A model generated the notes under the pieces. The model had not been told where the DNA came from. It ran no database searches and was given only the letters and a program-made list of their open reading frames with translations. This document shows, in pieces, positions 1-5,791 of a stretch of 5,791 bases of DNA. The stretch's first letter is position 1, and each line of letters begins with the position of its first letter. Position numbers and translations under genes: made by a program. The DNA is from a virus. Lineage: Duplodnaviria > Heunggongvirae > Uroviricota > Caudoviricetes. Where the stretch lies: the IMG/VR virus record IMGVR_UViG_3300013903_000037. The stretch is one strand, 5' to 3'.

Positions 1-13
1 AACTCTGTTATTC

Positions 14-134
14 TCTGTAGTCGTGTAATTACTCGAAGAGAGAGCGGCTAAAGCTCAATTACACTCTGCTTTCCTCGTGTAATTTCACTAAGCCTCAATA
101 CAATTCCACTTCCTACTTCTGTAGTCGTGTAATT
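14..134. repeat. Iteron-like repeat array: exact 17-bp direct repeat TCTGTAGTCGTGTAATT at 14-30 and 118-134; third copy of the 10-bp core TCGTGTAATT at 75-84; inverted copy of the 8-bp core (AATTACAC) at 57-64
   Basis: Read directly from the sequence. Direct copies are spaced about 50-54 bp apart in a stretch with no ORF on either strand. Function (origin iterons or operator array) is inference. Confidence 0.7.
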
Positions 135-180
135 GTTTTCGGTGGAAAAGCCAGAGGCGACACCGAAAGAGAATTCTGAT

Positions 181-250
181 CTTATTAATCTTATCTATCT
201 TAGTTAATCTTCTTACTTTATCTTACTTACTTTATCTACTTTATTGTTAA
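181..250. repeat. AT-rich, pyrimidine-rich low-complexity tract with 10-bp periodic tandem units (TCTTACTTTA at 211-220, TCTTACTTAC at 221-230, then TTTATCTACT)
   Basis: Read directly. Strong strand asymmetry (T/C on + strand) and no ORF. Possible DNA-unwinding or bending element next to the iteron array. Confidence 0.55.
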
Positions 251-280
251 TAATAGCTTTATAAGCTCTGTGTAGCTCTC

Positions 281-338
281 TGACGCAAGAAACCGCATTC
301 AGAAAGGGAATCACCTTAGAAAAGTGTTCTTTGCGTCA
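281..338. promoter_or_regulatory. Imperfect inverted repeat TGACGCAAGA (281-290) / TCTTTGCGTCA (328-338), arms about 37 bp apart
   Basis: Read directly. Lies upstream of the first gene. Could be paired half-sites for a DNA-binding protein or a long-range stem. Function unknown. Confidence 0.35.
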
Positions 339-463
339 TAATGTGTTTTATGAAGGATTCAGAGGTGTTTCATAACAGAAATGTATTGAGGCATATTTTT
401 CTAAGCATTACCCAAATATATACGATGACTTTGATATTCCCTTTTAAAAAGTAAGGAGGACTA

Positions 464-742
464 TTGATACAGTATTTAATAAAAAGCAAAGTAGACAGAA
501 TTCAGTGTAATGACACAGGAAAACGCATCTACGAGACACTTGCTTACCTCTATAAAGGAAAGCCAACACCGCTAAAATATAGCGATGTGTTACATCGAGC
601 AGGGTGCTCTGAAGCTGGTTTAAAATTCTGGCTGAAACAGCTATCAAACTTCGGTGTTATAGAGATTAAAGAATTATCTTTCTCTACATTCAATCTCAAA
701 AGACTTTCTAAAGAAATAGAATTCATCTATTCCACTCTCTAA
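464..742 (+). CDS. Small (92 aa) putative winged-helix/HTH DNA-binding protein, TTG start
   Basis: ORF track 464..742. Strong Shine-Dalgarno AAGGAGGA at 453-460, though spacing to the TTG at 464 is short (3-4 nt). No in-frame ATG or GTG exists near the 5' end, so TTG is the only canonical start. The central segment (KYSDVLHRAGCSEAGLKFWLKQLSNFGVIE) has the look of a helix-turn-helix with a wing. Sits next to the repeat array. Confidence 0.5.
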   Translation: MIQYLIKSKVDRIQCNDTGKRIYETLAYLYKGKPTPLKYSDVLHRAGCSEAGLKFWLKQLSNFGVIEIKELSFSTFNLKRLSKEIEFIYSTL

Positions 743-783
743 AATCTCTCTATGTAATTAAAATATAAAAGGAAAACATTATT

Positions 784-900
784 ATGATAGTAGCTATGTA
801 TTGGTTATTGTTCTTTCTCACGTTAGAAGCATATTTCGGGGTGTTTTCCTTTAAAAGAAAAGGAAAAATAAATGGCAAAAAGAAAAAACAACGTTGTTAA
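784..900 (+). CDS. Candidate 38-aa small membrane peptide (MIVAMYWLLFFLTLEAYFGVFSFKRKGKINGKKKKQRC): hydrophobic N-terminal segment plus polybasic tail
   Basis: Hand translation; not in the ORF track because it is short. ATG at 784 preceded by AAAGGA (769-774) at about 9 nt spacing. Overlaps the start of the 872..1282 gene in another frame, so it could also be a chance ORF. Confidence 0.25.
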   Translation: MIVAMYWLLFFLTLEAYFGVFSFKRKGKINGKKKKQRC

Positions 901-1282
901 GAAAATCGGTGATTCAGCTTCTCTTCTAAGTAAACCTAAATCTATTCTAAGACGTAAAGACTTTAAAGAGCTAGTTACGCTCACCAAGCAAAATAGCGCC
1001 CCTGGCGAATGGAAAACAGAGATCATAGAACATTCTCCCTCTGTGCCTTGTGGAGATGAATATATCGCATTACAAGAAATCTTATCTTCAACACCTGGCG
1101 TGTTCTGGAAACCTAAAAAAAGAAAAGAGTATATCGTTGATAGCTCTGATTTACGCAAATACCAGATTTTAGGATTTGAAGACTATAACCACTACGTCGG
1201 TTATCTCGCCACAAATGGCCTAAATAATTTAGTTCCTGAATTCCAAATTTTAGATAATGCTGATCACTATGGAGACTTTTAA
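872..1282 (+). CDS. Hypothetical protein, 136 aa, strongly basic N-terminus (MAKRKNNVVKK...RRKDFK), possibly nucleic-acid binding
   Basis: ORF track. ATG at 872 preceded by a purine-rich AAGGAA (860-865). Stop TAA at 1280-1282 lies one base before the next gene's ATG. Same strand as all other supported genes. Confidence 0.6.
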   Translation: MAKRKNNVVKKIGDSASLLSKPKSILRRKDFKELVTLTKQNSAPGEWKTEIIEHSPSVPCGDEYIALQEILSSTPGVFWKPKKRKEYIVDSSDLRKYQILGFEDYNHYVGYLATNGLNNLVPEFQILDNADHYGDF

Positions 1283-1283
1283 T

Positions 1284-1622
1284 ATGAACAAAAACACATA
1301 TGACACAATTTACTCACTAATTAATTATTATGAGGATGATTACCTCCTGCCTTTAAACCGCGCTGAACTTGAAGCATACAAAGAAAACACGCCAGCGGCA
1401 CTAAATGAGGCGTTTAAACACTGGGATTTAGCTGTGAATGCCTTTGAGCACCTCTCTAAGCGTGTAGAGATGCTCTGTAAGCGTGAAAACGCATACCTGA
1501 CAGCCGATCAGATATGGGAGCTATCAAACTGGATAGAAGATATTGAATCTGATGTTCGCTATGTAGGAGATGGACTTGTTGAACTAGCTCAACGCTTAGG
1601 CGCTACTATCACAGAAGAATAA
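1284..1622 (+). CDS. Hypothetical acidic protein, 112 aa (track ORF 1257..1622 trimmed to the ATG with the best ribosome-binding site)
   Basis: GGAGA at 1271-1275, 8 nt upstream of ATG 1284. The earlier in-frame ATGs at 1257 and 1269 lack a ribosome-binding site and overlap the previous gene. By residue counting the protein has a clear excess of Asp/Glu over Lys/Arg, and its composition suggests mostly helix. Stop TAA at 1620-1622. Confidence 0.6.
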   Translation: MNKNTYDTIYSLINYYEDDYLLPLNRAELEAYKENTPAALNEAFKHWDLAVNAFEHLSKRVEMLCKRENAYLTADQIWELSNWIEDIESDVRYVGDGLVELAQRLGATITEE

Positions 1623-1651
1623 AAAAAGCAACAAAAAAGTTGTAAAATATC

Positions 1652-1680
1652 TTGACATTTCATCTATTGTATGTTAATAT
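1652..1680 (+). promoter_or_regulatory. Near-consensus sigma70-type promoter: -35 TTGACA (1652-1657), 17-bp spacer, extended -10 TGtTAATAT (1672-1680), A/T-rich UP-like tract upstream (1621-1650)
   Basis: Read directly. Predicted transcription start around 1687-1689. Confidence 0.65.
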
Positions 1681-1686
1681 AATTAT

Positions 1687-1910
1687 ATGGGGGTGATTAT
1701 TTTTCCTTTATTGGTTCGATATTAAAAATTCTTCCTGTCATTAAAGGGGAGTAAAATCTCCGCTCCCCGCTTCTCCTCCTTAAGTAAATACTGTGTCATT
1801 ATTACCTCTTTTTTCCTTTGTTATGCATACATCTTGGAGTATGCATAACATAGGGTAATTACATAGGTATGAGTTAATAAAAGGCGGCTTTAAATGCTGC
1901 CTTTTATTTT
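1687..1910 (+). ncRNA. Putative structured non-coding transcript or leader of about 220 nt, running from the predicted start of the 1652-1680 promoter to the intrinsic terminator at 1879-1910
   Basis: No plausible ORF with a ribosome-binding site in this interval. Contains hairpin GGGGAG(1746-1751)/CTCCCC(1763-1768), a single-stranded CU-rich anti-Shine-Dalgarno-like stretch TCCTCCTTA (1774-1782), a perfect 10-bp inverted repeat TTATGCATAC(1821-1830)/GTATGCATAA(1839-1848), and the terminator hairpin. Existence of a discrete RNA is inference. Confidence 0.3.
1879..1910 (+). terminator. Intrinsic (rho-independent) terminator: stem AAAAGGCGGC / GCTGCCTTTT with 7-nt loop, followed by TTTTATTTT
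   Basis: Read directly: 6 G/C-rich pairs including one G-U, extended by A-U pairs, then a T-run. Moderate predicted strength, so it may act as a partial or regulated terminator. Confidence 0.55.
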
Positions 1911-1972
1911 GCCCGTTATGCAACTTAAAAGTTGTATTTCTTACTTTAAACAAGGTAACAAGGTTTATATAA

Positions 1973-2185
1973 ATGTTGTTCTTAAATGATAAAGAGCAAA
2001 TCATCAAGTATAAAGATGAAATGCTGAAAATTAATCCACAAATTACCGAAATGGTAGCTAAATACGCTGGGTGTTCTGTCGAGGAAGTAGAAAGATGTGT
2101 TGAAAAATATTTTTCTCCTTCTTCTCCGTCTACACCTTCCCTTAATGAATTAATCAAATTAAAAGCTAAGGAGATTACTAAATGA
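1973..2185 (+). CDS. Hypothetical protein, 70 aa
   Basis: ORF track. Weak ribosome-binding site (AAGG at about 1961-1964). Stop TGA (2183-2185) overlaps the ATG (2182-2184) of the next gene, which suggests translational coupling. Start codon uncertain; internal ATGs exist. Confidence 0.45.
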   Translation: MLFLNDKEQIIKYKDEMLKINPQITEMVAKYAGCSVEEVERCVEKYFSPSSPSTPSLNELIKLKAKEITK

Positions 2186-2550
2186 TTATTGATTTAGACA
2201 CTCTGTTTCCAGGTCGAAATCGAAAGACTTTCACAGATATTGTAAGTTATTGTACTGATCCGTTTGCCTCTGTAGAAAGCAAGGTTTTTGCTTCTCTTCC
2301 TGCTGATGTTGAGTGCGGCGACTTGATCACCAGCACTGGCGCTAAATATGAATCAGGAGATGATATCTATGTTGTTATGAGTGAATTTGTAACGGCTGGA
2401 GAAAACAAGCCTGTAGATGTGCTACGTAGCAATGCTGGGCTTGTATGCATCAAAGCTGATGCCCTGAATGCTGTAAGTGAAGCAGCAAAAACAGCATTAA
2501 TTAAAAAAGGCTTTCAGCTTGAAGGCTTTAATACGGTTTTCACTTCTTAA
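2182..2550 (+). CDS. Hypothetical protein, 122 aa, immediately upstream of the major capsid gene (positional candidate for a scaffolding, decoration or other head-associated protein)
   Basis: ORF track. Good ribosome-binding site TAAGGAG (2167-2173), 8 nt before ATG 2182. Function is assigned from position only. Confidence 0.6.
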   Translation: MIIDLDTLFPGRNRKTFTDIVSYCTDPFASVESKVFASLPADVECGDLITSTGAKYESGDDIYVVMSEFVTAGENKPVDVLRSNAGLVCIKADALNAVSEAAKTALIKKGFQLEGFNTVFTS

Positions 2551-2568
2551 TAAAAGGAATAATAATAA

Positions 2569-3597
2569 ATGATTCTAGGTAATGATTACGTTGATTTAGC
2601 TCCTTTGTTCTCTGCGCATAGCACTAGAAACTATCTACTGTCTACCCTTGACTTCACTGATCCGGTGGGCGTTAGTTCTCATAAAGTAGCTGTTTCCCAG
2701 CTTGTCGAAAGCAACGAATCTCTCTTTAACAAAGAGACAAGCCGTTTTAGTTCTGAACACAATGTTACTAAGCGTGAACAAGGTAAAGAATGGCTTATCG
2801 AAATCCCGTATTTTCTTCGTGAAGATGTGATCCGTCCTTCTGATGTTCAAGGCAAACGTAAGTCTGGCACTGATTTTCAGGAAACACTCACTGATATTTA
2901 TGCGGAATATATCGCTAAACACCACGTAGCGTATCAGCGCACTAAAGAGAGCGTGCTGGCGGCTTCTTTGTTCTCTGGCAAAACTTACACGCCTAAAACT
3001 GATGATGTGTTAATTGAGTGGAGCAAGCTGTTTAACGTATCACCAATGAAAACCACGGTGAACGCTTCCAGCACGGACACCACGAAGATTTTTAAAGAAT
3101 TTGATCAGATTGCTACTAACATTTTTGAAATCACACAAAGCCAGGCGTCAGCGGTAGAAAGAATTGTTGTTTTCTGTAAACCTGACGCCTTCTCTGCAAT
3201 TCGATTCTCTGCTGGTATGGCAAACGCATTCCAGTATGTAAGCCCACTGGAAGAGGGGAACGTTGTGTATCAGCGTCGTGACCTGCTGCCAGGAGTGACA
3301 GCGTTCACTATTCCAGGAACTAACATCGATGTTGTTAAACTGGTAGATCCGCTACATCTGGCACATATGACCGCAGACGCTGTAGCGGTTCCGAAGTTTG
3401 CTAAAGGCTCTAACGTATATCAGAACATCTACGGGGCTGCTTCCAGCACCTTTGAACTGATTAATGCCGCTCCTGCTGAGGTGTATAGCTATAGCTATGA
3501 ATCTTCTCGTGGTGATGCTGTTAACGTTGTTACAGAGAATAGCCAGATGGTTGTAAACCACGGCGTTGGCTTCTCCGTTCAAATCACTGTTAAATAA
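2569..3597 (+). CDS. Major capsid protein, 342 aa, HK97-fold, apparently of the T7 gp10-like family
   Basis: ORF track. Ribosome-binding site AAAGGA (2553-2558). Recognition is from memory of T7 gp10A (345 aa), not a search: window VVFCKPDAFSAIRF (residues about 200-213) against remembered T7 VFYCDPDSYSAIL (about 206-218); window IEIPYFLREDVIRPSDV against T7 ITIDGLLTADVLIYDIE; similar length and C-terminal character. Followed by a strong terminator, as is typical of highly expressed capsid genes. Confidence 0.7.
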   Translation: MILGNDYVDLAPLFSAHSTRNYLLSTLDFTDPVGVSSHKVAVSQLVESNESLFNKETSRFSSEHNVTKREQGKEWLIEIPYFLREDVIRPSDVQGKRKSGTDFQETLTDIYAEYIAKHHVAYQRTKESVLAASLFSGKTYTPKTDDVLIEWSKLFNVSPMKTTVNASSTDTTKIFKEFDQIATNIFEITQSQASAVERIVVFCKPDAFSAIRFSAGMANAFQYVSPLEEGNVVYQRRDLLPGVTAFTIPGTNIDVVKLVDPLHLAHMTADAVAVPKFAKGSNVYQNIYGAASSTFELINAAPAEVYSYSYESSRGDAVNVVTENSQMVVNHGVGFSVQITVK

Positions 3598-3616
3598 TAT
3601 TTTTAACGTGTAATAG

Positions 3617-3652
3617 AGGCGTGGCGTGTATTCACGCTTCGCCTTTTTTTTT
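3617..3652 (+). terminator. Strong intrinsic terminator: stem AGGCGTGGCGTG / CACGCTTCGCCT (two G/C-rich helices around a small internal loop), loop TATT, followed by a run of 9 T
   Basis: Read directly. Located 20 nt after the capsid stop codon. Confidence 0.75.
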
Positions 3653-3686
3653 ATTTATTTTTTAAATTTTGAGAGGTGATTAAAAT

Positions 3687-3887
3687 ATGGAAGTGATTTT
3701 GAAATCAAAAAATGGTGTACACGTACATTTAGATGCTAATGATTCTAGAGGCTTGTTAAATCTGAAATATCTCTGTTCTCTCCTAGATGTTCCATATGAA
3801 GGAGTAAAAGCCCGTATGTTCAGATTAAACGAGAGTATTGATCAAGCTCTACACCATTTCTTAAGCAAAGAAGGTGGTAAAAAATGA
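3687..3887 (+). CDS. Hypothetical protein, 66 aa
   Basis: ORF track. Ribosome-binding site GAGGTGA (3673-3679), 7 nt before ATG 3687. Stop TGA at 3885-3887, 19 nt before the next gene. Confidence 0.55.
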   Translation: MEVILKSKNGVHVHLDANDSRGLLNLKYLCSLLDVPYEGVKARMFRLNESIDQALHHFLSKEGGKK

Positions 3888-3906
3888 TTAATAAGGGGGA
3901 TTTTAA

Positions 3907-5791
3907 ATGTTAGAAATTAACACTTCTAAAATTAAGAACACAGTTACATTTAGTGTAGATAAAGACAGCTTGAAAAAAGCGAAAGACTCTATTACAGGCT
4001 TAAAGGAATTCGCAGAAAATATCAAGCCAGCTAAATTAAGATTTGATATTGTCACTAAAGGCTATAAGAAAGCACAAAGTGAAGTAGACAAGATTGCTCA
4101 ACAGAAAGCTAAAACAGAAAAGCAGAATCAAAGAGCACAAGCTGCCGCAGCAAGAGCACAGGCAAGGCAACAGGCACAAATAGCAGCACGCAAGGAGAAA
4201 GCAGACTTAAAACTGTTAGACGTTGGATCAAGCATTAGTGCAATGCACCGTCTCTCTGTAGCGGAACAATACAAAGCTATTGCACAGGCTAGAGAAATTG
4301 CCCTCCAATATGAAAGAGGCGCTATTAGTCTGGCACGTATGAATAGCCAGATGAAACGCCTACAACAGCAACAACGTAAGATTAATGGCAACAGAAAAGC
4401 TCAATTAGCCCCCGTTAAGGGAGGAGGATCAGGGAATGCCGCCACTATGGGCGCTCTGTTATTTGGAGGCGCTACGGCTGCTGCTGGCGTGATGGCTGTT
4501 AGTAAAGCGTCGGAGTTTGTTAGTAGCAGTTTCGCTAACGCAGACACCCAAGGGGAGCTAATCCAACGTGCAAAGCTGGGTGGTGTAGACGTTAACCAGA
4601 TGTATAATATTACAGAATGGGCGTATAAAAACGGCGTTGACTCTATGATGGGTGATCAAGGGGCTAGAAAATACCTAGATCAGATGAAAGATGTTAGGGA
4701 ACGTGCCGCAAAATCCTATAGTGAAGCTGAATTGGTGAAAGACAAGAAAACCGGAAAATCAGGGAAATGGAAAGGCGGTGATAACGCTATTAATGAACTT
4801 CTAAACATCGGAGTTATTAACAAAAGCGACCTTAAAAAATTTGCTGATAATCCAGCCGGATTAATTTCTAAGGCTGTTAATGGAATGATGAAAAAAGGGT
4901 TTTCAGATTCTCAAATTGGACAACGTTTAGAAGACCTGGGCGATGATTTGATGCTTACATCAAAATATTGGCAACGTTCCGTTAAAGATGTACAAGAAAG
5001 TATTAACCAGCAAAAAGCCTCTGGAAAATGGCTAACAGAAACACAGCAAGACTCTATTGTTAAATTCAGAGAACTAAACAGACAGCTTTCACAGCTTTCT
5101 GATGCAAGACAAGTAGCATTCGTAGACGGCTTTATGAAATCTCTTGATCCAAAAGTAACGGAAGAGTTTTTGAAAAACCTTTCTAATCTCACTCCGTATT
5201 TTACGAAGCTGGGAGAAGCTACAGGAAGTCTCTTTGAGGCCATTATGAAGATTGTAAACTGGTTTAATCGTAATGATGATAAGACAGATGCTATTCAGAA
5301 AAATTTAGGTGATGCACCGCCATTAAGCAATGACGGAATGAAACAGAATCTTTCTAATCTCGTTCCTGATAAATATAAAGGCGCTGGCACTGCAACAACT
5401 ACACCTGATAATAGTCATTCTCTCTTTAACACGATTAAGGGATTGCTTTTCGATGATAATTCTTCTGTGTCAGATGTAAAAATGTCAGTCAGCGAAGCAC
5501 CGATAACCAATCTCAAACAGGGTGCTTTAAATAATCTTGCAATGACAACTCCGGCTTATAATTTATCTCCTGTGTTTAATCTGAATCCTACATTTGAAGT
5601 GGTAACAGAGGTTCCTCTTACTATTAATTCTGACACATCAAGATTAAGCGATTATGTGGATTTTACAGCGAGAGCAAGTCGGGATAGCTTCTTGAAATCA
5701 TTAACATTAACCAGCTTATCAGGACACGAAGATTATCAGGAAATAAAAGGCGTAAGATATCATCAGACAGATAAAGAACTTGTGCAGAAAG
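3907..5791 (+). CDS. Large virion-type protein, 3'-partial (at least 628 codons, no stop before the window end): N-terminal Q/A/R/K-rich predicted coiled-coil, Gly/Ala-rich hydrophobic glycine-zipper-like segment (residues about 172-199, nt 4420-4503), then a mixed Ser/Asn/Thr-rich region. Candidate internal core, ejection or tape-measure-like protein.
   Basis: Hand translation of frame 1 from ATG 3907 gives an uninterrupted reading frame to the end of the window. Absent from the ORF track, presumably because it has no stop inside the window. Ribosome-binding site AAGGGGGA (3893-3900), 6 nt before the ATG. Composition is typical of phage tape-measure or internal virion proteins. Confidence 0.7.
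   Translation, partial: MLEINTSKIKNTVTFSVDKDSLKKAKDSITGLKEFAENIKPAKLRFDIVTKGYKKAQSEVDKIAQQKAKTEKQNQRAQAAAARAQARQQAQIAARKEKADLKLLDVGSSISAMHRLSVAEQYKAIAQAREIALQYERGAISLARMNSQMKRLQQQQRKINGNRKAQLAPVKGGGSGNAATMGALLFGGATAAAGVMAVSKASEFVSSSFANADTQGELIQRAKLGGVDVNQMYNITEWAYKNGVDSMMGDQGARKYLDQMKDVRERAAKSYSEAELVKDKKTGKSGKWKGGDNAINELLNIGVINKSDLKKFADNPAGLISKAVNGMMKKGFSDSQIGQRLEDLGDDLMLTSKYWQRSVKDVQESINQQKASGKWLTETQQDSIVKFRELNRQLSQLSDARQVAFVDGFMKSLDPKVTEEFLKNLSNLTPYFTKLGEATGSLFEAIMKIVNWFNRNDDKTDAIQKNLGDAPPLSNDGMKQNLSNLVPDKYKGAGTATTTPDNSHSLFNTIKGLLFDDNSSVSDVKMSVSEAPITNLKQGALNNLAMTTPAYNLSPVFNLNPTFEVVTEVPLTINSDTSRLSDYVDFTARASRDSFLKSLTLTSLSGHEDYQEIKGVRYHQTDKELVQK

What the first reader, a model, noticed from the sequence alone, without database searches (positions are those of the whole stretch)
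872..1622. Tightly coupled basic/acidic small-protein pair in the early region
A 136-aa protein with a strongly basic N-terminus is followed, with a 1-nt gap and the second gene's ribosome-binding site inside the first gene's 3' end, by a 112-aa clearly acidic, Trp-containing protein. Translationally coupled pairs of this kind in phage early regions are often host-takeover or anti-defence factors (acidic DNA-mimic proteins such as Ocr or ArdA-type anti-restriction proteins, or anti-CRISPR-like proteins), or toxin-antitoxin-like modules. Neither protein is recognisable to me, so the pair is a good candidate for an undescribed function.
Basis: inference. Interest (0 to 1): 0.55.

Follow-up and report, generated by a model that had tools for sequence, protein, structure and literature searches.

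The report
Conserved gene pair of satellite-like element
The two small genes are real and tightly coupled, but they are a conserved core pair of a 12.5-kb phage-satellite-like island in E. coli and its relatives, their function is still unknown, and nothing found here supports an anti-defence or toxin-antitoxin role.

Summary
orfA (872-1282, 136 aa, basic N-terminus) and orfB (1284-1622, 112 aa, pI 4.4, 3 Trp) are separated by 1 nt, and orfB's GGAG lies inside orfA. Both are under purifying selection. The context is not a phage early region. It is a 12.5-kb island at tRNA-Thr thrW, matched in 624 of 5426 complete E. coli genomes, with relatives in Klebsiella, Enterobacter, Citrobacter and other genera. 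The gene order is always replication initiator, orf92, A, B, promoter/leader/terminator, orf70, decoration-like orf122, capsid protein, orf66, tape measure, tail-tube initiator, integrase. No terminase or portal gene is present. The tail genes resemble those of phi92-like virulent myoviruses (up to 60% identity), so the island looks like a satellite. I found no description of it in the literature. B is predicted with high confidence as a generic three-helix bundle. A has no recognisable fold, but its last ~40 residues are homologous to rV5 gp104, a small early protein of rV5-like phages. No anti-restriction, anti-CRISPR, defence or toxin-antitoxin family matches. My best guess, at low confidence, is a helper-interface adaptor pair. 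The main rival is a regulator of the late operon that starts 30 nt downstream of B.

The parts
861..864 (+). AGGA ribosome-binding site of orfA, 7 nt upstream of the ATG
   Evidence: Read directly from the sequence.
872..1282 (+). orfA, 136 aa. It has a basic, poorly ordered N-terminal tail (residues 1-40), a conserved alpha/beta core with a KP(K/R)KRK motif, a C-terminal ~40-residue domain homologous to rV5 gp104, and an acidic end.
   Evidence: ORF. 276 homologues and alignment A1. pN/pS 0.15-0.53. AF2 pLDDT 59.9, with residues 1-27 below 50. phrog_5488 hit in 32 of 33 members. hhalign to rV5 gp104 gives 93.3% probability, E 2.8e-7.
1154..1267 (+). Part of orfA (residues 95-132) that encodes the gp104-like domain (LGF..Y.GYL..NGL.N...FD)
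1271..1274 (+). GGAG ribosome-binding site of orfB, inside the 3' end of orfA
   Evidence: An SD-like element is kept at this position in 8 lineages.
1284..1622 (+). orfB, 112 aa, acidic (pI 4.44). Predicted antiparallel three-helix bundle with helices at residues 5-34, 37-66 and 74-105.
1452..1485 (+). Imperfect 21-nt-spaced direct repeat inside orfB (CTCTCTAAGCGTG / CTCTGTAAGCGTG). It coincides with the 7-residue insertion and deletion variants (KRVEMLC unit) seen among E. coli alleles.
   Evidence: Repeat family D12. Alleles of 105, 112 and 118 aa in alignment A2.
464..742 (+). orf92, a basic 92-aa protein that always lies directly upstream of orfA. Its helix-turn-helix look is my reading of the sequence, supported only by a weak DnaD-like hit.
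   Evidence: Weak DnaD-like PHROG hit. Conserved synteny in 12 of 16 loci by tblastn.
1629..1642 (.). Dyad CAAC-N6-GTTG, copy 1, 7 nt after the orfB stop codon and just upstream of the -35 element
   Evidence: Exactly two copies in the window against 0.06 expected. The equivalent TAAC-N6-GTTA dyads lie almost only in this gap in other lineages.
1652..1680 (+). Sigma-70-type promoter TTGACA-17-TAATAT with TG extended -10; candidate promoter of the structural (late) operon
   Evidence: The -35 and -10 elements can be found in all 8 divergent loci aligned, although in two of them the promoter sits in a shifted position in the alignment (A4).
1686..1915 (+). Structured leader that ends in a hairpin (1876-1908) plus a U-run, which I read as an intrinsic terminator upstream of orf70
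   Evidence: Fold energy -67.5 kcal/mol, z = -5.5. Inverted repeat I8. By my reading of alignment A4, a hairpin followed by a T-run precedes orf70 in the other lineages too. The tool's own terminator scan did not list this site.
1921..1934 (.). Dyad CAAC-N6-GTTG, copy 2, between the terminator and orf70 (52 nt before its ATG)

Best explanation
orfA and orfB are two co-translated core genes of a 12.5-kb integrative, satellite-like island. The island carries capsid, decoration, tape-measure and tail-tube-initiator genes but no terminase or portal gene.

The reading I think most likely is that they form a two-protein helper-interface module. In this model A is a modular adaptor. Its lysine/arginine-rich, poorly ordered N-terminal tail and KPRKRK patch bind nucleic acid or an acidic partner. 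Its C-terminal ~40-residue domain, shared with the small early protein gp104 of rV5-like virulent myoviruses, engages whatever host or helper component gp104 normally binds. B, an acidic three-helix bundle made in fixed proportion to A through translational coupling, would bind and modulate or chaperone A. Together they would tie the island's replication-to-morphogenesis programme to infection by a helper phage.

Shown here: both genes are real. The coupling and the position are conserved. The fold of B is predicted with high confidence. The C-terminal domain of A is homologous to rV5 gp104. The island's tail genes resemble those of phi92-like phages.

Inferred, not shown: that A and B bind each other, that A binds nucleic acid, that the target is a helper or host factor, and that the island is a satellite at all.
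For: - Core status and fixed position. The order orf92-A-B-gap-orf70-orf122-MCP-orf66-TMP is found in all E. coli, Klebsiella, Citrobacter, Pluralibacter and IMG/VR loci examined.
- Conserved translational coupling and purifying selection.
- The C-terminal domain of A is related to rV5 gp104. phrog_5488 hits 32 of 33 members, best E 4e-5. tblastn with the family consensus gives 120 hits, apparently all in rV5-like phage records. hhalign gives 93.3% probability.
- gp104 is conserved in 238 large-myovirus records. In rV5 it follows a sigma-70 promoter and sits between thyX and nrdA.
- The island is linked to the same phage supergroup. Its tail-tube initiator is 60% identical to that of Justusliebigvirus PaulScherrer, and the tape-measure N-terminus is 53% identical. 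The capsid and Dit-like proteins match rV5 gp060 and gp048.
- A-B stay in place when the replication initiator is swapped from an HTH_36/O-like type to a 482-aa helicase-like type. This argues for a role independent of the initiator.
- B is among the fastest-evolving genes of the island (26-40% identity, against 52-64% for the capsid protein), as expected for an interaction surface under conflict.
- From general knowledge, the genes that follow the replication module in known satellites (P4 epsilon, SaPI Ppi and PtiA/M) are typically helper-interaction factors.
Against: - There is no direct evidence that A and B interact.
- The function of gp104 is itself unknown, so the homology names no mechanism.
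- The closest gp104 relatives are in Vequintavirinae, while the tail genes are closest to Stephanstirmvirinae. No single helper is therefore identified.
- A types and B types are found in different combinations across lineages, which does not suggest tight co-evolution.
- The island has not been shown to be mobilised by any phage.
Confidence: 0.33

Rival explanations
1. A and/or B regulate the island's late (structural) operon. In this model a strong constitutive promoter 30 nt after orfB transcribes a structured leader that ends in an intrinsic terminator. A-B would then act like lambda Q (encoded directly upstream of pR'-tR'), or as an activator or anti-repressor working through the two dyads that flank the leader, and so allow read-through into orf70-orf122-capsid-tape measure.
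For: - Consensus promoter at 1652-1680, recognisable in 8 lineages.
- Leader folds with z = -5.5 and ends in a terminator-like hairpin plus U-run.
- The dyad CAAC-N6-GTTG occurs exactly twice, flanking the leader, against 0.06 expected.
- The same arrangement, with TAAC-N6-GTTA, is seen in other genera, and both half-sites change together.
- orfB ends 30 nt before the -35 element in E. coli.
- A has a basic N-terminus.
Against: - No similarity to any Q, N or other antiterminator or activator family.
- The dyad sits at about -51 in some lineages but inside the promoter spacer in others. That fits a repressor or roadblock better than an activator.
- orf92, which looks like a winged-helix protein, is a more obvious DNA binder than A.
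- The type of A's N-terminal tail does not track the leader sequence: L043 and L021 share leader hairpins but have different A tails.
- The gp104 homologue in rV5 is followed directly by nrdA, not by a promoter-terminator unit.
Confidence: 0.22
2. A-B are accessory replication proteins of the island, for example recruiting a host or helper helicase or polymerase to the island's origin together with the initiator and orf92.
For: - They lie directly downstream of the replication initiator and orf92.
- A has a basic tail that could bind DNA.
- gp104 in rV5 sits in the DNA and nucleotide metabolism cluster: DNA polymerase exonuclease subunit, thyX, nrdAB.
- Iteron-like repeats lie upstream in the same arm.
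Against: - No similarity to helicase loaders (DnaC, P or DnaD families) for A or B.
- A-B are retained unchanged when the initiator type is exchanged.
- They remain intact in the window's variant, which has lost the initiator gene. The pN/pS values themselves describe the gene family, not this deletion lineage.
Confidence: 0.13
3. One reading: B is an acidic DNA-mimic or other anti-defence or host-takeover factor (Ocr/ArdA-like or anti-CRISPR-like), and A is its partner or regulator.
For: - B is acidic (pI 4.44, net charge about -12) and small.
- B evolves fast.
- Both proteins are unannotated.
- From general knowledge, satellites and phages do carry anti-defence genes.
Against: - No Pfam, NCBIfam, PHROG or PADLOC match.
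- The acidity is moderate: 19.6% D/E, against roughly 29% for T7 Ocr (from memory).
- The pair has a fixed core position in all lineages, not a variable cargo slot.
Confidence: 0.07
4. A-B is a toxin-antitoxin-like addiction module that stabilises the island.
For: It is a two-gene, translationally coupled operon of small proteins, one basic and one acidic.
Against: - No toxin or antitoxin family matches.
- The sizes and predicted folds do not resemble known type II pairs.
- In two lineages a third ORF separates the genes.
- The pair is conserved as a syntenic core across genera.
Confidence: 0.03

Closest known systems
rV5 gp104 (YP_002003606) / phrog_5488, a small hypothetical early protein of Vequintavirinae and related large myoviruses
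   Same: Residues 95-132 of A align with residues 4-41 of gp104 at 37% identity, sharing the motif LGF..(E)Y.G(W/Y)L..NGL.N...(Y/F)D.VY.D. hhalign gives 93.3% probability. phrog_5488 hits 32 of 33 A-family members.
   Different: gp104 is a stand-alone 76-aa protein located between thyX and nrdA. A carries about 90 additional N-terminal residues (a basic tail plus an alpha/beta core) that have no counterpart in gp104. A also sits in a chromosomal island, next to B. The function of gp104 is unknown.
Helper-interaction genes of known phage satellites (P4 epsilon; SaPI Ppi and PtiA/PtiM)
   Same: These are small satellite-encoded proteins placed after the replication module, some of which work as pairs (PtiA and PtiM). 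They act by binding helper proteins. This comparison is from general knowledge and position only.
   Different: There is no sequence or structural similarity, and no helper target is known here.
Lambda Q with pR'-6S-tR' (late-gene antitermination unit)
   Same: A gene lies immediately upstream of a strong promoter, a short structured transcript and an intrinsic terminator that precede the structural operon.
   Different: A and B match no Q family. The palindromic dyads flank the leader rather than forming a single Q-binding element. No antitermination has been demonstrated.
T7 Ocr / ArdA DNA-mimic anti-restriction proteins
   Same: Small, acidic and helical.
   Different: B is much less acidic, is predicted as a simple three-helix bundle, has no family match, and behaves as a core gene rather than cargo.

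Membership tests
phrog_5488 / rV5 gp104 family (applies to the C-terminal domain of A only) | Significant profile match to the family model or to a member | tested here: met
   phrog_5488 hits 32 of 33 members, best E 4.1e-5. hhalign of A1 against gp104 gives 93.3% probability, E 2.8e-7 over 38 columns. tblastn with the consensus gives 120 hits, apparently all in rV5-like phage records, at 36% identity.
phrog_5488 / rV5 gp104 family | Stand-alone protein of about 76 aa in the nrd/thyX gene cluster of a large virulent myovirus | tested here: not met
   A is 136 aa with about 90 extra N-terminal residues and lies in a chromosomal island between orf92 and orfB. It shares a domain with the family but is not an orthologue.
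Ocr / ArdA DNA-mimic anti-restriction proteins | Match to the Ocr or ArdA sequence families | tested here: not met
   No Pfam, NCBIfam or PHROG hit for B or A.
Ocr / ArdA DNA-mimic anti-restriction proteins | Very high negative charge density arranged to imitate the DNA backbone | tested here: inconclusive
   B has 22 D/E in 112 residues (19.6%), net charge about -12 and pI 4.44. That is acidic but well below Ocr (from memory). The surface charge pattern of the model was not analysed.
Ocr / ArdA DNA-mimic anti-restriction proteins | Fold similar to Ocr or ArdA | tested here: not met
Type II toxin-antitoxin module | Recognisable toxin fold or family (RelE, MazF, VapC, HipA, Doc and others) with a DNA-binding antitoxin | tested here: not met
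   No Pfam, NCBIfam or PADLOC match. B is a helical bundle.
Type II toxin-antitoxin module | One product is toxic and is neutralised by the other | not testable with these tools
   This needs expression assays.
Anti-CRISPR (Acr) with Aca regulator | An Aca-type HTH regulator gene adjacent to a small Acr gene, usually in a variable locus | tested here: not met
   No HTH family match in A or B. The locus is invariant across lineages.
Lambda-type Q antiterminators | Gene directly upstream of a constitutive promoter followed by a terminator that gates the late operon | tested here: met
   The promoter lies at 1652-1680 and the terminator-like hairpin at 1876-1908 with a U-run after it. Both lie between orfB and orf70 and recur across lineages.
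Lambda-type Q antiterminators | Membership of a Q protein family (Q-lambda, Q82 or Q21) | tested here: not met
   No Pfam, PHROG or NCBIfam hit. No PDB sequence match.
Phage satellites (P4-like, PICI, cf-PICI, PLE) - context of the pair | Small integrative element with integrase, its own replication genes and an incomplete set of virion genes | tested here: met
   The island is 12.5 kb, bounded by 20-bp repeats of the thrW 3' end. It has a tyrosine integrase, a replication initiator, capsid, decoration-like, tape-measure and tail-tube-initiator genes, and no terminase, portal, sheath or tube gene.
Phage satellites (P4-like, PICI, cf-PICI, PLE) - context of the pair | Gene content of one of the four described families (for example Sid/Psu/Delta/alpha for P4; terminase, portal and protease for cf-PICI) | tested here: not met
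   None of these genes is present. The mix of capsid genes with a tape-measure and tail-tube-initiator gene is not that of any described family, as far as the annotations and six literature searches show.
Phage satellites (P4-like, PICI, cf-PICI, PLE) - context of the pair | Mobilisation by a helper phage | not testable with these tools
   There is only indirect support: 60% identity of the tail-tube initiator to that of Justusliebigvirus.

The most novel reading that the evidence does not exclude
A-B is the helper-sensing or hijacking switch of a previously undescribed class of phage satellites. These satellites carry their own capsid, decoration, tape-measure and tail-tube-initiator genes and parasitise virulent phi92/rV5-like myoviruses of Enterobacteriaceae. 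A would use a domain copied from a helper early protein (gp104) to plug into the helper's programme, and B would gate it.
Probability: 0.2. Interest if true: 0.8.

Novelty: new variant of a known kind. Interest (0 to 1): 0.5.

Why it matters
If the island is a satellite of virulent phi92/rV5-like phages, it would be a new satellite type in E. coli and Klebsiella. Phages of that group are among those considered for therapy. It would be unusual in supplying its own capsid subunit and tail-length ruler while apparently borrowing the remaining virion parts. The A-B pair is one of the few non-structural genes kept in every member, so it is a prime candidate for the step that couples the island to its helper. 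A also gives a first functional handle on gp104, a small protein conserved in 238 large-myovirus genome records and so far without any assigned role. If instead the pair is an ordinary regulator of the island's late operon, the interest is limited to this element family.

Tried and rejected
- Family searches. Pfam, PHROGs, NCBIfam and PADLOC scans of A and B gave nothing significant for the whole proteins. Scanning every family member separately gave only phrog_5488 for A.
- Phage genomes. tblastn of A and B against 50,697 phage records found nothing at E <= 0.01. B still finds nothing meaningful at E <= 10.
- Solved structures by sequence. Profile searches with the A, B and A C-terminal alignments gave only coiled-coil noise.
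- A-B complex.
- Related loci. The GTDB representative-genome scan returned only one locus.
- Rfam. No family matches the leader or any other part of the window.
- N-like RNA binding by A. Rejected as unsupported, because the type of A's tail does not track the leader hairpins.
- The dyad as a helper late-promoter motif. rV5 has 22 copies in 88 kb against 6.5 in mononucleotide shuffles. As far as I checked against the rV5 annotation, they fall mostly within coding sequence and show no promoter pattern, and the control is weak, so I dropped this line.
- Known cryptic prophages. O157 Sakai Sp1 and Sp2 at thrW are different elements.
- Literature. Six searches found no description of the island or of these proteins.

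Full report
**Observation**

The window has an ORF at 872-1282 (136 aa). A second ORF's best-supported start is the ATG at 1284, ending at 1622 (112 aa). The stop codon TAA of the first ORF (1280-1282) is separated from that ATG by one base, and GGAG at 1271-1274 lies 9 nt upstream of it. Gene callers sometimes chose an in-frame ATG at 1269 (P0121, P0122). The family alignment starts at the 1284 methionine, and only that start has a Shine-Dalgarno sequence.

Protein A has pI 8.56, with 12 K/R against 3 D/E in its first 40 residues. Protein B has pI 4.44, 22 D/E against 10 K/R, and 3 Trp. The description in the finding is therefore accurate.

**Are the genes real?**

Against six diverged E. coli copies, both genes show pN/pS of 0.14-0.53. 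A has 276 homologues and B has 443. All are in Enterobacteriaceae, and all that carry a name are called 'hypothetical'. The length variants of B are in-frame 7-residue units at a short direct DNA repeat.

In 24 distinct A/B pairs the stop-start distance is +1, +4, -8 or -11 nt, with an SD-like GGAG or AAGGAA in the 3' end of A. The Klebsiella and Pluralibacter lineages are the exception, because an additional 55-75-aa ORF lies between the two genes. Translational coupling is thus a conserved property of the pair.

**What the surroundings are**

Window positions 1-5726 are identical to chromosomal DNA of several E. coli strains. 624 of 5426 complete genomes have a match, always on the chromosome.

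In full-length copies the sequence is a 12.5-kb island inserted at tRNA-Thr thrW and bounded by a 20-bp direct repeat of the tRNA 3' end. Its genes, in order, are:
- a small recombinase on the minus strand
- about 2 kb without ORFs
- two small ORFs
- a replication initiator (HTH_36, O-like or DnaD-like)
- orf92, then A, then B
- a non-coding gap
- orf70 and orf122
- a lambda gpE-type major capsid protein
- orf66
- a 611-aa tape-measure homologue
- a Dit-like protein
- a tyrosine integrase on the minus strand

.

There is no terminase, portal, protease, sheath or tube gene. The same order is found in Klebsiella, Citrobacter, Pluralibacter and metagenome-derived loci that share only 26-64% protein identity. 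In some of these the initiator is replaced by an unrelated 482-aa helicase-like protein, while orf92-A-B stay in place.

The Dit-like protein is 60% identical (E 4e-82) to the 'tail tube initiator' of the phi92-like phage PaulScherrer. The tape-measure N-terminus is 53% identical to that phage's tape measure. The local orders small ORF, tape measure, initiator and decoration, capsid both mirror that phage and rV5.

The island therefore looks like a satellite of large virulent myoviruses rather than a phage. Six literature searches found no description of it. So the pair is not in 'a phage early region'. It lies in the non-structural arm of a satellite-like element, between the replication genes and the promoter of the structural operon.

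**Protein B**

No sequence family matches B, and no phage in the 50,697-record collection encodes a relative, even at E <= 10. The conserved polar residues cluster on helix 3 (W78, N82, E85, E86, E97, E100). My inference is that this acidic face could bind a basic partner.

**Protein A**

- a variable, basic N-terminal tail
- a conserved core (PGEW.TEIIEH ... KPRKRK.Y..DS)
- a conserved C-terminal segment, L.KYQILGFE.Y..Y.GYL..NGLNN...DFD, followed by an acidic end

The C-terminal segment is the only part with relatives elsewhere. phrog_5488 is hit by 32 of 33 family members, with best E 4e-5. A tblastn search with the consensus finds 120 records, apparently all rV5-like phages, at the same gene. 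hhalign against that gene product, rV5 gp104 (76 aa), gives 93.3% probability over 38 columns.

gp104 is a hypothetical protein found in 238 large-myovirus records. In rV5 it lies downstream of an annotated sigma-70 promoter, between thyX and nrdA. It has no Pfam or PDB relative. A is thus a composite protein that shares one domain with an early protein of the phage supergroup to which the island's structural genes also point.

**The DNA just downstream of B**

This region matters for interpreting the pair.
- Thirty nucleotides after the orfB stop codon lies a near-consensus promoter, TTGACA-17-TAATAT with an extended -10 (1652-1680). It is recognisable in all eight aligned lineages.
- The promoter is followed by a strongly structured leader (z = -5.5) that ends in a hairpin and U-run at 1876-1915, before orf70. 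By my reading of the alignment, the other lineages have longer leaders that also end in a hairpin and T-run. The tool's own terminator scan did not list the window site.
- A palindrome, CAAC-N6-GTTG, occurs exactly twice in the window, against 0.06 expected. One copy is just upstream of the -35 element and one is just after the terminator.
- In the other genera both positions carry TAAC-N6-GTTA, and these dyads are almost the only ones in 16-31 kb of sequence.

This layout resembles lambda Q with pR', the 6S transcript and tR'. It makes 'regulator of the late operon' a serious alternative for A-B.

Several points count against that alternative. There is no similarity to any antiterminator. The position of the dyad relative to the promoter differs between lineages (about -51 in some, inside the spacer in others). 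orf92 looks like the more obvious DNA-binding protein. The type of A's tail does not track the leader sequence.

**Weighing the explanations**

- The anti-defence (DNA mimic) and toxin-antitoxin ideas have no positive evidence. The pair's invariant core position also argues against them.
- A replication-accessory role fits the neighbourhood. It is weakened because A-B persist when the initiator type is exchanged, and because they remain intact in the window's own variant, which has lost the initiator through a 1557-bp deletion.
- The reading I favour, at about one in three, is a helper-interface pair. A would be an adaptor that uses its gp104-like domain to engage the partner of the helper's gp104, and its basic parts to bind nucleic acid or B. 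B would be its stoichiometric modulator. This rests on the domain homology, the helper-like structural genes, the core status of the pair, the fast evolution of B, and the precedent of satellite genes in the equivalent position.
- The late-operon regulator model comes second, at about one in five.

None of these models has been tested directly.

**Novelty and verdict**

The two protein families are uncharacterised. The pair is ordinary in kind: small accessory proteins of a mobile element. What makes it interesting is where it sits, in an apparently undescribed satellite-like family that is widespread in E. coli and Klebsiella and is linked to phi92/rV5-like virulent phages. I rate the finding itself as moderately interesting (0.5).

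Noticed in passing
Whole window; full-length copies at L002:9064-21590 and L003:9207-21425: The window is part of a 12.5-kb island at tRNA-Thr thrW, bounded by a 20-bp direct repeat (ACTCCTATTATCGGCACCAT). It has an integrase, a replication initiator, decoration-like and gpE-type capsid genes, a tape-measure gene and a tail-tube-initiator (Dit-like) gene, but no terminase, portal, sheath or tube gene. 624 of 5426 complete E. coli genomes have a match, and relatives occur in Klebsiella, Enterobacter, Citrobacter, Pluralibacter and other genera. The tail-tube initiator is 60% identical to that of Justusliebigvirus PaulScherrer. It looks like a satellite family of virulent myoviruses, and I found no description of it in the literature.
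   Followed up: partly
window:1623-1972: The gap between orfB and orf70 contains a consensus sigma-70 promoter (1652-1680), a strongly structured ~230-nt leader (z = -5.5) and a terminator-like hairpin with U-run (1876-1915). Two copies of the palindrome CAAC-N6-GTTG (1629-1642 and 1921-1934) flank the leader. Other genera have TAAC-N6-GTTA at both positions. The layout resembles lambda pR'-6S-tR'. No Rfam family matches.
   Followed up: partly
window:5727-5791: The last 65 nt do not belong to the island. From 5721 the window is 100% identical to the 3' end of a murE-like gene in MT835527, whereas the E. coli copies continue differently and end the tape-measure ORF at the window-equivalent position 5743. 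The window's source contig is probably a chimeric assembly, joined at a short shared stretch (AGGACA, 5721-5726).
   Followed up: yes
L046 (MT835527.1 20662-36732): This GenBank record, labelled 'Bacteriophage sp.' and marked UNVERIFIED, carries what look like bacterial housekeeping genes in this stretch. By my reading of the ORF sizes and N-termini they include murE-, priA-, def-, fmt-, rsmB- and rlmN-like genes. It looks like a bacterial chromosome fragment rather than a phage.
   Followed up: partly
window:379-399 (deletion junction); L002:12399-13955: Compared with full-length islands, the window copy (and the identical copies in H22 to H24) has a 1557-bp deletion between ~20-bp similar sequences. 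The deletion removes two small ORFs (62 and 56 aa) and nearly the whole replication-initiator gene, so this variant is probably unable to replicate on its own.
   Followed up: yes
window:14-30, 68-84, 118-134: Three copies of a 17-nt repeat (TCTGTAGTCGTGTAATT; two identical, one 76% identical) are spaced about 50 bp apart, upstream of the replication genes. They look like iterons and could mark an origin.
   Followed up: no
L002:10931-12900: About 2 kb of the island's left arm has no ORF longer than 75 aa. This is unusually long non-coding DNA for a 12.5-kb element. It could hold an origin, a packaging site or regulatory RNAs.
   Followed up: no
window:1452-1485 (orfB codons ~57-68): E. coli alleles of B differ by gain or loss of a 7-residue unit (KRVEMLC) at a short direct DNA repeat, giving proteins of 105, 112 and 118 aa. 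The indels are one heptad long and fall at the end of helix 2 and the following loop of the predicted bundle.
   Followed up: partly
L004:10405-10572; L006:10405-10632; L050:7784-8008: In the Klebsiella and Pluralibacter lineages an extra acidic 55-75-aa ORF is inserted between A and B, overlapping the end of A. The pair becomes a trio there.
   Followed up: no
L006:1-15340; L001:1-11000: The islands can sit in tandem arrays. One Klebsiella locus has two copies head to tail. In E. coli CEA601S the island lies next to a P22-like prophage and a vat toxin island, all downstream of thrW.
   Followed up: no
window:2182-3650: orf122 followed by the capsid gene and then a strong terminator (3616-3640) copies the arrangement decoration, capsid, terminator seen in rV5 (gp061, gp060) and PaulScherrer. 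The capsid protein is only 21-23% identical to those phages' capsid proteins, far less than the tail-tube initiator.
   Followed up: partly
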